NCBI GenBank assembly: GCA_951406725.2
Contig: OX597817.1
Coordinates: forward strand, 94,860,001-94,924,000
DNA length: 64,000 bases
From: Octopus vulgaris
Lineage: Eukaryota
Reading direction: 5' to 3'
Part shown: positions 2,207-29,570 of the stretch, piece by piece
Numbering within the stretch: the first letter of the stretch is position 1
Layout: each line of letters begins with the position of its first letter
Position numbers and translations under genes: made by a program
Notes under the pieces: generated by a model
Database searches by the model: none
The model's input: only the letters and a program-made list of their open reading frames with translations
What the model was told of the DNA's origin: nothing

Positions 2207-2810
2207 TTGTTATATTTCGGAATGGTCATTTTGCCAGTTTAGCCAATAAAAACACACGCACTATATAGTTGGTGTTACTTTGCTTCAGTGTTCCTTATTT
2301 TTTACATTAATCTTAATCTTATTTCGGCCAGAGTTCTTTCGTCACACTCCTGTGACCGCATCAGTAGTCCTTTGTTTTCTTCTTTCTTATTTGTGTCTCT
2401 CCTTACTAACCGTCAGCCATTTTGTATTTTTATTGTATGTCTTCATTTGCGCATGCTATATCTGTATGTGCGTCTATGTTTATTTAGTGTGGGGGGGGGT
2501 GCCTGTAATATTTGTATCTTCTGTTTATATTCTGTTTATATACGTTCATGTAATTTGTTTTTGTTGTTGTTTTTGTTGTTATTCATGTGTTTATATCCAC
2601 TTATTATTATCATTACATAATCTTGTATGTATGTATGTATAACAAGAATACTAGTAATAATAATAATAAATAAATAAAAACTTTCAAATTTAAAAAAAAA
2701 CTTATATAGTTATTTATTTATTAGCTAAACTGGCAAAATGACCATTCCGAAACATAACAATATCTGTTTCAACACACGACTTCACATAAAAAATCTTGCA
2801 CAACAAATAT
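2207..2810 (-). mobile_element. Non-coding Penelope/retrozyme-like fold-back element in (TA)n
   Basis: About 45-bp inverted ends (2207-2250 vs 2716-2760); internal hammerhead-like motif; TA tracts on both sides. Confidence 0.6.
2326..2370 (-). ncRNA. Minimal type I hammerhead-like motif (extra-G variant, C3-G8)
   Basis: ggacta CTGATGC G gtcaca-ggag-tgtgac GAAA gaac TC tggcc; A9C change and imperfect stem I. Confidence 0.5.
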
Positions 2811-3160
2811 ATAAACGTGTATATATATATATATATATATATATATATATATATATATGCATATAACGGTTTTCATTACACATTATCTGGAACACATCCC
2901 AACTACACGGAATTAGACAACCCAAAACTTCGTTAGAGGACACTTCTCATTGTGATGCGCTATGGTATCCGAAATCTGGGACCGTTATACAAATATACCT
3001 ACTCCCATACATTACAACACGAATTGTCTTGAGAAAGAGAAGAATCATGTATTACAGAAACAGTCTCGTGTCACCTTATAAGCTTTACATACTCATGTGC
3101 ATGTGTGTGTAATATATACTTGGTGTAGTGTAAGTGTATGAGGAAGATGATATGACTCAC

Positions 3161-3282
3161 TCAGATTCCACTAGAGCTTCAGTGGCCTTCAGGCTAAGCA
3201 AAAGTTTCAAACAGCCATTCATTGTTTCTAAGGGATTGTTAGTCGTTTCATCCAACTGATCGCTCCCATCCATCATCAGCTC
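3161..3282 (-). CDS. AGBL2: Probable C-terminal-region exon of the CCP2/3-like gene
   Basis: ttattaccacag / gtgagt. Translates ELMMDGSDQLDETTNNPLETMNGCLKLLLSLKATEALVES; phase 0 to 2, so the gene continues left of the window. Confidence 0.7.
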
Positions 3283-3449
3283 CTGTGGTAATAATAAAAA
3301 CAGAGAATAATTTACATATACAGACCCCGACACACACAAACACAAACACACACACACACACACAAACACACATACACGCGCAAAAAGTATGAAAAACGGC
3401 TATAAACATATATATATATATATATATATATATATATATATATATATAT

Positions 3450-5650
3450 GAAGACGATATTATAAAGTTAGTTAGAAATGTAAAATTCAACCCAAAATCC
3501 AACAAGTTCCAACACATTACAGACACACATCGAACCTTTCAAAACGTCAACAAACATGTTTATCAAAGCAGATAAAACAAAAAAATATTTATGAAGTAAA
3601 CAACTAAATACACAACAAATTATTAGCCGGCAACATAATTAAAACATACAAGAAAACAAACCCCAATACTTATAATTCAATTAATATAGAAGCAAAAAAT
3701 TCAGCCACAAAGTTTAAAACAGAAGACAATGTACAAAAAACTTATACCACGAAATCCTTTAGTAACTCTGAAAAACCATAAAGATAACCTCACGCAAAAT
3801 TCTAGCTGTAGATTAATAAATCCCACAAAAAGCGAAATAGTAGTTATGAACTTTTGAATGATTAAAAAAAATAAAAGATAAATCTAAATGCAAATTTATA
3901 TAGTTCGATATCGTAGAGTTCTACCCCTCGATCTCCAAAAGCTTGCTTCAGAAGGCACTTGAATTTAGTAAGACATATGTCACTATAACAAATACTGATA
4001 TAGATATAATTTTGAACGCAAGAAAGCCATTACTCTTTCATGATAATTTATATTGGGTAAAAAAAAGAATGGAGACGAGCGATTTGAGGTGGAAATGGAG
4101 AGCTATGACGATGTAGAGATAGCTGATCTTGTAGGCCTTTATATCCAAGACATCCTTAAAAAAGAAATAAAAGAAGCTAACATAGGTTTATATAGGGACG
4201 ATGGCCTGGGAGAAGTGTACAATAAAAACGGACATGAGATAGATAGAATAGCGAAAACATTATGCCAAATATTTAGCCACTTAGGCCTAATAATCACAAT
4301 TAGAAGTCAACTTCCTAGACATTAACATGAATCATAACTCAGAAAAATTTAAACACTACCACAAACCAAACGAGGAAGCCTTGTACATAGACATAGGTTT
4401 CAACCACCCACCAGCAGTAATTAGACAAATGGTTAACAACATTTTCAGGCGCGTCTCCAATTTATCCGCCGACAAAGATACTTTTCAAAGGTCACCCTAT
4501 ATTATAACGCTGCATTAGAAAGGTCCACCTTCAAGAATACTACATTGAACCAAATATTAATAGACCAAGAAGATGCAGACAGAGTATGTATGTAGCTACT
4601 AACATAGCTAGGAAGTTTTTAAAACTAATAGACAACCACTTTCCACATTCACACAAATATCACAAGATCTTCAACATTAAAGTTAGCTCTAGTTGCCTCC
4701 CCAATATAGGGTCAATAATACTCAATCACAATAAATATAAACACACAAGAAACACCCCGTAAGACAATGAAACTGTAGATCCCCAAACCACTGGCCTCTA
4801 AACAACAACTGTCTCGAGAAAGAACTCGTATACAAGGCCAAGATCACAGACCCCAACGGAATAGCAACGAAGTACATTGGAATGACGTGCAACGCCTTCA
4901 AGGAAAGGTATACGCAACGTCTGGCGTCATTCAAAGATAAAAAAATTCTTTAAAGTACATGCAACATCCCTGTCAAATATGATATGGACATTTAAAGAAG
5001 GTAAAATAAGCAACCTCCAGACAGAATGGAAAATTATTAATAAAATCATAAAGTACAGAGCACGGGGCACCACATGTGAACTTTGTATTACTGAAAAGTT
5101 AAACAGTATACGATCAACAGATAACAACCTAAACATTAGGGATGAAACCTTCTCCCCCTGCATACACACGACATATTTTACACTCAAATATTTCAAGGAG
5201 CCACTATCTGCGACGTAATCCCAGCAGGATGTCCCCTTTCCTAAACGTGAAATCTGAACACACATAGCACACAAACTCCACACACAGGAGAAATATGACC
5301 CAATGACGAACTACCTCGACACACAAGTATAAGAGCACAATACCCAAACAAAAACTAAATAATGCAAACAAATTGACCACACAACAATTTACTCAAAAAA
5401 CAAATCCAAGGGAGGCAAACATCCAAGAGAAGCCATTCAAGAGTAACGTCCCTTGAAACATTGATTCATTGTTTTATTCACGTGAATTCACGTGAATCTT
5501 CGGGAACTAAACGAGGCTGTGTTTCCCAAAATAGAGGCGAACACCTTTCTCCATGTCACTGATTTGAAAAATTGTTAAGACACTAGGATATCTTCCTACT
5601 TTTCTTAACACGAAACCTATGGTAGCTTTCATTCACAAATGAAGAATGTG
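3450..5650 (+). mobile_element. Degenerate Penelope-like retroelement (RT + GIY-YIG)
   Basis: RT fragments (SYD..EIADLVGLYI, GLYRDDGLG, NHPPAVI) followed by GIY-YIG fragments (LVYKAKI...KYIGMT, EWKII...CELCITEK); many frameshifts. Confidence 0.85.
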
Positions 5651-6173
5651 TGTCTGTGTGTGTCTGTGTGTGTGTGTCTGTGTGTGTGCGTGTGCGTGTG
5701 TGCGTGCGTGTGTATGTATTCAATTATAGAAATAAATTGACATATGTATAGGCAATAAGCAAATTGGTTGATAGATAAAAGCCTAAAAACTTGTCGAAAT
5801 CACTAAGTTTAAAGTGGTGGCATTCTTCGGTAGTGTGTGTGTGTGTACATACTTATACATACATACATATACATATATATATATATATATATATATATAT
5901 ATATATATATATACAAACTGGGACAAGAACGCAAAACATTTAGAAGACGATACAAAAAACACGGACAGGATATTCGAAGCCTTCAATCTTCAGTCAAGAA
6001 CCGGATCATCCTCGCAATTTCGGCTGATTAATCTGTATATATATGTATATATATGTATATATATGTGCGTGTGTGTGTGTGTATACATACATACATACAT
6101 ATATACATACATACATACATACATACATACATACATACATACATACATACATACATACATACATACATATATA

Positions 6174-27770: not shown

Positions 27771-28510
27771 TTTATAATAAGGTTCAGCACAGATTTGCTT
27801 TACCACATACCGAAGTTTAGAAATAGCAGCCAAAGAACCTTAGCTATTTCCTCTACTTTAAAAAAAGACTCCCGGAAGAAACAAATTACTCGAAAACAAT
27901 CCACGAAGGCAGAGAGGAAAAATAACGAAAATCAATCGATATTAGATTATCCATGTACGCGTTTCGGAATTAGATCGGTATAAAGAATGTGTAATTTATA
28001 CTTTACCCGAACATTTTCTTCATCATCATGGGACTTCACAATATTAGATATTAAAAATATTAAATTCGAAGGCACTGGAAGAACCGAACATATCTCTCCA
28101 ACTAACGGTATCAGACAGATCAAATTCAACGTCAGTACCGCCGAATTTAAAAATATACGAATGAAGTTCATTACCTTCCCCTGCCCATCCACGTGTGTCG
28201 TCAAGTAAAATACTACAGAAAAAATGTGTAGTTTATTATCAGGGAGAAAATTATGTTATCAATAATAACAAAGGGTAAAATTAATTAATTAACTAGTAAT
28301 CAATAATTTCACCAAGTAGAATTCGGCATGAAAAAGGGTTCAGCAAAGATTTGCTTTACCACAGTATGTGGTAAAGCAAATCTTTGCTGAACCCTATTAT
28401 AAAGTATTACTTTAATTTACCGTGAAATGGTCCTTTTTCATACCGAATTCTACTTGGTGAAATTATTGATTACTAGTTAATTAATTAATTTTACCCTTTT
28501 TATTGTTATA
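27771..28510 (-). mobile_element. Composite direct plus inverted repeat element with decayed hammerhead, in (TA)n
   Basis: ggttcagcaaagatttgctttaccaca occurs at 27781 and 28337 and inverted at 28367; outer inverted arms 28262-28337 / 28432-28508. Hammerhead at 27951-28031: ccatg ATGATGA...GAAA cgcg TA catgg (C3A). Confidence 0.65.
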
Positions 28511-29125
28511 TATATATATATATATATATATATATATATATATATATATTATGTATGTATGTATGTATGTATGTATGTATGTATGCATTATGTATGTATG
28601 CATGCATGTATGTATGTATGTATGTATGTATGTATGTATGTATGTATGTATGTATGTACGTATGTATGTATGTATGTATGTATGTGTATATATTTGTGTG
28701 TCTGTGTTTGTCCCCCACAGCGCTTGACAACCGATGCTGGTGTGTTTATGCCCCCGTAACTTAGCAGTTCGGCAATAGAATCCGATAGACTAAGTACTAG
28801 CCGTACAAAGAATATGTCCTGGGCTTGATTTGTTCAACTAAAAACGGTGCTCCAGCATGGCCGCAGTCAAATGACTGAAATCAAAGAATGGGTATATGCT
28901 TATACCTGCGTATGTGTGTGTGCGTGCGTGAGTGACTATGAAGATATATGTATGTAGGTGTGTACGTATATATATATATATATATATATATATATATATA
29001 TATAATAATAATAATAATAATATTAGGGTAATAAGAATTATAGAAATTATTATTACCTGTGGCCTAGCACAGGCAACTAGTTTACATGCGAATCTAGTTG
29101 TGTGTATATTTGAAATCTAAAGGCT

Positions 29126-29192
29126 CCCTACTGACGAAAACTAGCCTCGGTGAATTTTTTTTACTGGAATGAGTTAGAAACAATGGTCTAGG
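29126..29192 (+). ncRNA. Type I hammerhead motif
   Basis: ccta CTGACGA aaact...agtta GAAA caatg GTC tagg; homologous to 35257-35326. Confidence 0.6.
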
Positions 29193-29519
29193 AACTAAAT
29201 TAGATGGTAAACGTTTTTAATTTTCAATCCTTTCGAGAATTTATCCATAATTAGTGGTTTGAGTTTTCTACTGCACTTTCTAGCACAAGGCTTTCCTATT
29301 TGGAAGCGTCTTAATGTGTTCTAATGTACACGATATTTTTATGAGTATATATATATATATATATATATATATATATATATACGGAGATGTACTTGCATAG
29401 CGAGTGACTTGATCTGAGATCGTGTGCTGGAACGAAAACAATTGCAGCGTGGAAGGTGTTTATAAGCCATTTAAGAAACACACAAAAACCGTTAGATTCA
29501 CTTCAACATTTAAATTTAA

Positions 29520-29570
29520 TTTGTCAAAATATTTTCGTCACTTTCAGACAGCGACCTGTTCACAGACAAA
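29520..29570 (-). ncRNA. Second copy of the G3-C8 variant hammerhead
   Basis: tttgtct GTGAACA G gtcgc...gtgac GAAA atat TT tgacaaa, in element 29381-29575 (reverse copy of 19499-19695). Confidence 0.65.

What the first reader, a model, noticed from the sequence alone, without database searches (positions are those of the whole stretch)
2326..29570. A family of variant hammerhead ribozymes with an extra G before stem II and covariation of the 3-8 core pair
Seen: four motifs in three different short elements share the layout stem I - N3 U G A N N8 N9 - G - GT...AC (stem II) - GAAA - short stem III - UH - stem I'. The cores are CTGATGC (2326-2370, minus), GTGAACA (19507-19556 plus and 29520-29570 minus) and TTGAAAA (22043-22081, minus). 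Positions 3 and 8 are therefore C-G, G-C and U-A, always Watson-Crick, while stems I and II differ in sequence but still pair. The host elements share a terminal motif (ttcarcacacga...cttgc) next to (TA)n. Established: C3-G8 is a tertiary Watson-Crick pair of the active hammerhead fold, and compensatory swaps can restore activity. Inference: this is an active or once-active non-canonical hammerhead lineage that CUGANGA pattern searches would miss. I cannot confirm that it is undescribed.
Basis: partly seen in the sequence, partly recalled or inferred. Interest (0 to 1): 0.88.

Follow-up and report, generated by a model that had tools for sequence, protein, structure and literature searches.

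The report
Swapped-core hammerheads in Penelope retrotransposons
The four motifs are the small hammerhead-shaped RNA elements at the ends of three related Penelope-type jumping genes; they likely cut RNA only weakly, and one recently spreading family with thousands of copies carries a swapped core pair (G3-C8) that I found in print only as a laboratory mutant.

Summary
The four motifs are real, but they are not a separate family of short elements. They are the minimal type I hammerheads in the pseudo-LTRs of three sister Penelope-like retrotransposon families (RT, Zn-finger linker, GIY-YIG; Neptune-like). The window copies are 5'-truncated; one core pattern has 11,331 genomic matches (control 0). 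The shared terminal motif is the ORF start, i.e. the PLE tail. Hammerheads in PLEs, the nucleotide between 9 and 10.1, U3-A8 and palindromic helix III are published (Cervera and de la Pena 2014). Not found in print: a natural G3-C8 pair fixed in a young high-copy family; G as the clade-wide extra base; A9C in the youngest family, which has intact ORFs. 'Always Watson-Crick' holds for the three large families only: older sister families spread with U3-G8 and probably C3-A8. Insertions do not begin at the predicted cut site, so cleavage is unshown and probably weak or protein-assisted. This scan noted G3-C8 plus an extra base before, in protist PLEs and in phages. Verdict: new variant of a known kind.

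The parts
2326..2370 (-). Family A hammerhead motif (C3-G8, C9, extra G; helix III strand AGAACU); predicted cut between 2331 and 2330
   Evidence: same motif in both pLTRs of 1312-aa-ORF elements L221, L222, L223, L235
2190..2671 (-). 5'-truncated family A copy (3' pLTR only), ending in (TA)n
   Evidence: blastn to full-length A, 89% over 496 nt
2703..2818 (+). Inverted piece of the family A copy with ORF start and tail motif (2768-2799)
19507..19556 (+). Family B1 hammerhead motif (G3-C8, A9, extra G; 7-bp stem I; palindromic helix III AAUAUU); predicted cut after 19549
   Evidence: 40 of 40 scored genomic matches 100% identical over 194 nt
19497..19701 (+). 5'-truncated family B1 copy between (TA)n tracts; ORF start and tail motif at 19645-19676
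22043..22081 (-). Family C hammerhead motif (U3-A8, A9, extra G; palindromic AAUU); predicted cut between 22047 and 22046
21904..22520 (-). 5'-truncated family C copy (3' UTR, hammerhead, ORF start, tail motif 21939-21970)
   Evidence: blastn to the RT/EN-bearing copy in L101
29520..29570 (-). Family B2 (older subfamily) hammerhead motif, G3-C8, decayed at the stem I closing pair
29374..29583 (-). 5'-truncated family B2 copy with tail motif (29400-29431) and (TA)n
1534..2126 (+). Fifth, decayed family C copy whose core has lost its 5' half; tail motif 2060-2091

Best explanation
The motifs are the minimal type I hammerhead elements in the pseudo-LTRs of three sister Penelope-like retrotransposon families, and they likely act as weak ribozymes that would cut after position 17 only as dimers or with help from the element's own protein. 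Shown: each motif sits 0.5-1.7 kb behind an RT + GIY-YIG ORF and again in front of it, 55-100 nt before the start codon; the window copies are 5'-truncated insertions into (TA)n. Inferred: RNA made from the upstream pLTR carries two hammerheads that can pair through the short helix III; reverse transcription starts at two sites in the first 25-100 nt of the ORF (the tail) and mostly copies uncut or re-ligated RNA. Selection keeps the fold, G5/A6/G12-A15.1 and a pairable 3-8 contact, but loosely: the lineage moved among C-G, U-G, U-A and C-A, crossed once to G3-C8 (kept through families F, B2 and B1), and the youngest family A replaced A9 by C.
For: Elements: A, intact 1312-aa ORFs in four copies that differ by 1-3 nt of 3936 in the four pairs compared, hammerhead in both pLTRs 4.6 kb apart. 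B, 1025-aa open frame, Pfam GIY-YIG above cut-off (E 1.8e-5), RT motifs and profile match to solved RTs (E 4e-6), hammerhead in both pLTRs of L598. C, degenerate RT/EN upstream in L101. A, B, C form one clade, 100/99. Fold: with one copy from each of 10 (sub)families, 90.8% of cells pair, 18 cells change on both sides, slid controls 22-47%; RNAfold gives stems I and II with an open core for A, B1, B2, C and H copies. Relatives in marine metagenomes: 17 of 51 loci with room show a hammerhead-like motif behind the endonuclease, 14 of them canonical CUGANGA plus extra G; more with a 3-4 bp stem II by eye. 3' ends are bimodal and bracket the shared motif, as for the PLE tail in PMC11167929. Literature: PMC4209133; engineered C3G/G8C partly restores a PLE hammerhead, which needs protein.
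Against: No cleavage data. 5' ends do not pile up at the cut site: within 4 nt of it in 2 of 48 A copies, 1 of 16 C and 1 of 9 B. Non-Watson-Crick families spread: all 10 G8 copies among the 19 matches have U3; C3-A8 in 10 of 23 family H copies, linked to G7 (p=0.0013). A9, which forms the sheared pair with G12, is C in the most intact family. An extra G at this place was strongly harmful in the CChMVd hammerhead (review passage). The helix III strand of A is not a palindrome, and predicted self-duplexes are marginal for all three (-0.2 to +2.2 kcal/mol). No wholly intact family B ORF was seen in the long copies examined.
Confidence: 0.72

Rival explanations
1. The motifs descend from hammerheads but are now catalytically dead; the fold is kept as a protein-binding, translation or packaging signal just upstream of the start codon.
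For: A9C fixed in the youngest family; U3-G8 and C3-A8 families amplified; no 5'-end pile-up at the cut site; hammerhead mutants did not change insertion in vitro for the anole element (PMC11167929).
Against: The double transversion to G3-C8 keeps exactly the tertiary pair needed for catalysis and lasted through three successive subfamilies; G8 and other breaks in family B are scattered single-copy changes, not a subfamily (337 genome-wide); canonical cores in outgroup relatives.
Confidence: 0.22
2. One reading: an independent lineage of short elements with efficient ribozymes in which 3-8 is strictly Watson-Crick.
For: The three large families have C-G, G-C and U-A; the 194-nt B end has at least 40 identical dispersed copies.
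Against: The short copies are truncations of autonomous PLEs with variable 5' ends and inversions; older families break the rule; PLE minimal hammerheads are slow in vitro.
Confidence: 0.05
3. Chance look-alikes in AT-rich repeat DNA.
For: Rfam hammerhead models do not report them (shown rows).
Against: Shuffle and reversed-pattern controls, covariation, fixed position in related elements; Rfam also misses a canonical retrozyme hammerhead in L111.
Confidence: 0.01

Closest known systems
Minimal type I hammerheads (min-HHRs) in the pseudo-LTRs of metazoan Penelope-like elements (Cervera and de la Pena 2014, PMC4209133)
   Same: Place in both pLTRs, short stem I, G10.1-C11.1, one nucleotide between 9 and 10.1, tiny palindromic helix III, mostly solo truncated copies; U3-A8 reported there (about 1,300 hits in Schistosoma mansoni, core UUGAAAAA against UUGAAAAG here).
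   Different: Published consensus is CUGANGAH; here the extra base is G (one G example, Nasonia, among the 56 in their Fig. S3). No G3-C8 and no C9 in the Fig. S3 rows I read; one U3-G8 row (Saccoglossus).
Hammerhead of the anole Poseidon element PAc (Frangieh et al. 2024, PMC11167929)
   Same: Hammerhead at the pLTR-ORF junction, two RT start sites inside the ORF start giving a tail, AT-rich targets; C3G/G8C double mutant partly active.
   Different: There G3-C8 is an engineered mutant; here it is the natural state of a family with thousands of copies. PAc is Penelope/Poseidon clade; these elements have the Zn-finger linker of Neptune/Nematis.
Natural core variants of hammerheads (Perreault et al. 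2011, PMC3088659) and the extra nucleotide of CChMVd (+) (via review PMC3705267)
   Same: 3-8 covariation (U3-A8) in nature; insertion between A9 and G10.1 is tolerated.
   Different: G3-C8 is not among the variants in the section read; in CChMVd an inserted G was strongly detrimental, whereas this clade keeps G.
Non-LTR retrozymes (PMC7229834; bioRxiv 10.64898/2026.07.22.740005)
   Same: Type I hammerhead with short helix III in animal repeats; thought to derive from PLEs.
   Different: Retrozymes are non-coding tandem arrays; these are dispersed, truncated ends of coding elements. A true retrozyme array with a canonical core lies elsewhere in this genome (L111).

Membership tests
PLE minimal type I hammerhead | Lies in the pLTRs on both sides of an RT + GIY-YIG ORF | tested here: met
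   A: L221, L222, L223, L235; B: L598; C: only the 3' position seen, L101
PLE minimal type I hammerhead | Stems I and II pair and covary; G10.1-C11.1 closes stem II | tested here: met
   (rows C and F are misaligned or decayed in stem I, which lowers its count to 75%)
PLE minimal type I hammerhead | [quoted passage not shown] | tested here: met
   G in all large families; register fixed by the A9 subfamily of A and by canonical relatives; only 19 non-G matches in the old 5-nt-loop class
PLE minimal type I hammerhead | Short palindromic helix III | tested here: inconclusive
   Palindromic in B (AAUAUU) and C (AAUU), central A-A mismatches in A; self-duplex energies marginal
Canonical hammerhead core | C3-U4-G5-A6-N7-G8-A9 ... 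G12-A13-A14-A15.1 ... U16.1-H17 | tested here: not met
   B: G3/C8; C: U3/A8 (a published variant); young A: C9. All other core positions match
Hammerhead ribozyme (function) | Site-specific self-cleavage after H17 | not testable with these tools
   Only assembled contigs were available; genomic 5' ends show no enrichment at the site
Rfam Hammerhead models | Score at or above the gathering threshold | tested here: inconclusive
   No hit at the four motifs among the 150 of 177 rows shown, but a canonical control in L111 is missed too
EN+ Penelope-like element | Single ORF, RT followed by C-terminal GIY-YIG | tested here: met
EN+ Penelope-like element | pLTRs, 5' truncation with inverted piece, optional 3' tail | tested here: met
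Neptune/Nematis clades | CX2-5CxxC linker before the endonuclease; (TA)n targets | tested here: met
   C-x3-C-x2-C in B, C-x4-C-x2-C in A, read from the ORFs; definition from PMC8557442; flanks
Neptune/Nematis clades | Placement in an RT tree with named reference elements | not tested
Non-LTR retrozyme | Non-coding tandem repeats of 170-400 nt | tested here: not met
   Dispersed copies of variable length that are ends of coding elements

The most novel reading that the evidence does not exclude
A recently mobile animal retrotransposon runs on a natural G3-C8 hammerhead, and its sister family on an A9C hammerhead rescued by the neighbouring extra G. The genome holds a datable record of a ribozyme's catalytic base pair walking through Watson-Crick, wobble and mismatch states, each amplified to many copies, with the clade-wide extra G acting as a brake that only dimerisation or the element's protein releases.
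Probability: 0.4. Interest if true: 0.65.

Novelty: new variant of a known kind. Interest (0 to 1): 0.48.

Why it matters
It widens the natural hammerhead core (G3-C8, C9, U3-G8, C3-A8, extra G), so present search patterns miss more than ten thousand motifs in this genome alone. It also bears on an open question: whether PLE hammerheads need to cut at all. Here one clade offers young elements with intact ORFs and a graded series of natural core states, which can be put straight into the published in vitro PLE assay.

Tried and rejected
Rfam scans: no hammerhead hit at the motifs, and uninformative because a canonical control was missed too. Sequencing runs: no RNA holder listed; four runs laid were contigs, which cannot show ends, though they show family A sequence in three organism labels. 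Pfam and PDB searches with single RT fragments found nothing; the whole ORF and a profile were needed. Idea that the conserved G is position 9 and the variable base is the insertion: rejected as history, because family A has an older A9 subfamily (most of 956 matches, judged from the first 100 listed) and relatives read CUGANGA-G; a folding switch to that register in C9 copies is not excluded. Idea that G3-G8 copies in B or C3-A8 copies in C are intermediate subfamilies: rejected, they scatter over the tree (tree output was cut in the middle). A core-blind sample of old families (72 anchored copies, 15 usable) was too decayed to test conservation of the core: U-A 5, C-A 5, other 5; G at the extra position in 7 of 15. 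Genomic footprint of cleavage: not seen. Counts per family are skewed for B and C because variant copies were fetched on purpose. Lunse et al. 2017 (about PLE hammerhead variants that cut as dimers) is not held; it and its supplements may already list G3-C8. Searches for a natural G3-C8 in print: (none found); hammerhead with octopus.
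Full report
Observation. The window lies in a 2.8-Gb animal assembly (G000:C4:94860001-94924000); its microsatellite-rich make-up made me guess a cephalopod, which I did not test. The four motifs are present as described. 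A descriptor scan finds three of them (the fourth has a broken closing pair), against 0.1 look-alikes per shuffled window and none with the 8-nt core ending in G. One core pattern has 11,331 matches in the genome and 0 when read backwards; by my count about 55 of the first 100 listed carry C8.

What carries them. Searches with the three elements gave 1126, 158 and 2547 candidates; all 40 scored matches to the 194-nt piece at 19497-19690 were identical. Copies sit in (TA)n, have variable 5' ends and often an inverted piece. [quoted passage not shown] Family A (motif at 2326) has many long open frames, four examined copies with a 1312-aa ORF differing by 1-3 nt of 3936, and the motif in both pseudo-LTRs. 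Family B (19507, 29520) has a 1025-aa open frame and the motif in both pseudo-LTRs of L598, but I saw no wholly intact ORF. Family C (22043) has only a degenerate RT/EN, in L101. A and B are 55% identical over the core protein, C about 48% to A and 41% to B; the three form one clade with B sister to A+C (midpoint root, direction not formally tested). These are Penelope-like elements with the linker and target choice described for Neptune/Nematis (PMC8557442, passages); clade placement against named references was not possible.

The shared terminal motif. [quoted passage not shown] Copies end at two places, about 85-94 and 140-154 nt after the predicted cut in B, and 125-129 and 170-189 nt in A, on either side of the motif. 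This matches the PLE tail, which in the anole element lies between two internal RT start sites (PMC11167929, parts 1-2 of 4 read).

The fold. With one real copy from each of ten (sub)families, 90.8% of cells pair, 18 cells change on both sides, and slid controls give 22-47% (the rows are related, so the shuffle control is not a probability). Stem II covaries at two pairs, helix III at one, stem I at one. RNAfold gives stems I and II with an open core for typical A, B, C and H copies, but not for the window's A and B2 copies or the G copy. Helix III is 1-3 bp, palindromic in B and C and not in A.

The core through time. Family majorities are C3-G8 (A), G3-C8 (B1, B2 and the older F) and U3-A8 (C, H1). 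Breaks of the pair inside B and C are few (337 and 169 genome-wide) and scattered over the tree. Older sister families break the Watson-Crick rule: family G is U3-G8 (all 10 G8 copies among 19 matches; 10 of 13 pyrimidine-3/G8 copies), and a branch of H is C3-A8 with G7 (7 of 11 C3 copies against 0 of 12 U3 copies, p=0.0013). These copies are old, and a core-blind sample was too decayed to settle the point alone, so C3-A8 is probable rather than certain. In family A an older subfamily reads CUGAUGA-G (most of 956 matches) and the C9 form is nested in the youngest branch. The extra G is a clade trait: of 51 metagenome loci with a related endonuclease and room behind it, 17 show a motif, 14 as CUGANGA-G, one U3-G8, one U3-A8 with an extra U, one doubtful; many are redundant, about seven distinct motif families, and further ones with a shorter stem II are visible by eye. 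None had G3-C8. My patterns fixed the extra G, so its constancy was tested apart: 19 non-G matches in the old 5-nt-loop class against about 40 with G among the first 100 of 141 rows.

Is it cutting? Not shown. No run on record as RNA was listed and only contigs could be laid. If cut RNA were the usual template, copies should begin at the cut; they do so in 2 of 48 A copies, 1 of 16 C and 1 of 9 B, while 27, 12 and 6 read through the motif. This fits uncut or re-ligated templates, and agrees with the anole element, where the hammerhead needs protein, the C3G/G8C double mutant is partly active, and hammerhead mutants insert normally in vitro.

Mechanism. Most likely a weak, conditional ribozyme. 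The transcript has two motifs, one per pLTR; they would pair through helix III or be folded by the element's protein and cut slowly after H17, releasing unit-length RNA from read-through transcripts. Location and geometry are shown; dimerisation, protein help and cutting are inferred from PMC4209133 and PMC11167929. The best argument for continued catalysis is that two transversions ended on G3-C8, the one state that restores the tertiary pair (C3-G8 pair and A9-G12 sheared pair: PMC11300833, passages). The best arguments against are A9C, the wobble and mismatch families, and an extra G that harmed the CChMVd hammerhead (PMC3705267, passage). One passing remark in PMC3884650 (passage) says a G3-C8 variant works better without C17; family B has U17.

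Comparison with what is known. Cervera and de la Pena 2014 (PMC4209133; parts 1-2 of 4 and supplement parts 1-2 of 3 read) describe this class, including the nucleotide between 9 and 10.1, the palindromic helix III, low activity as dimers and U3-A8 in about 1,300 Schistosoma motifs; their consensus is CUGANGAH. Perreault 2011 (PMC3088659; section 8 and passages) reports natural U3-A8. I also read passages of PMC6765202, PMC8495972, PMC7229834 and PMC13282606, and parts 1-2 of 5 plus passages of bioRxiv 10.64898/2026.07.22.740005. Searches for a natural G3-C8 found only engineered cases; Lunse et al. 2017 was not available and could hold it. Earlier notes of this scan report G3-C8 with an extra base near Penelope-like RTs in three other genomes and G3-C8 in phages (unchecked by me), so the state may recur in nature.

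Verdict. Real, and more than the window shows: a whole PLE clade with a drifting hammerhead core. The class and two of the three striking features are published. What remains new is a high-copy natural G3-C8 family in an animal, the clade-wide extra G, A9C in the most intact family, and amplified intermediates. New variant of a known kind; interest 0.48.

Noticed in passing
window 25548-25655 (-), with ORF remnant about 25780-26100 (+) and a partial related copy about 29690-29800: A separate hammerhead-like motif with a canonical core plus G (CUGAUGA-G), 5-bp stem I, 3-bp helix III and a long helix II; weak Rfam Hammerhead_1 match, 24.5 bits against a cut-off of 34. It seems to belong to another PLE family.
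   Followed up: partly
L111:2300-4600 (G000:C1 near 20.0 Mb): A 359-bp tandem array with a canonical type I hammerhead in each unit, on both strands: a non-LTR retrozyme that Rfam misses.
   Followed up: partly
L130:7082(-), L116:8818(+), L150:2742(-), L104:1144(+), L194:3714(-): Further canonical-core minimal hammerheads (CUGANGA plus A) of other repeat families; the genome seems rich in PLE hammerheads.
   Followed up: no
family A copies, L558-L597 and L161-L190: 5' breakpoints cluster 70-90 nt downstream of the predicted cut, just before the start codon (13 of 48), many next to an inverted piece; possibly a preferred template-switch site.
   Followed up: no
L221:2513-6448 (-): The family A protein has an insertion of about 260 residues rich in Asn and Ser between the N-terminal helical part and the RT, kept open in near-identical copies.
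   Followed up: no
L092:6143-8185 (-) and L091:2850-4840 (-): Two other PLE types with RT and GIY-YIG ORFs lie next to family B copies.
   Followed up: no
L241:1232-1282: The closest metagenome relative (48% in the thumb/endonuclease region) carries U3-A8 with an extra U, possibly an independent gain of U3-A8.
   Followed up: partly
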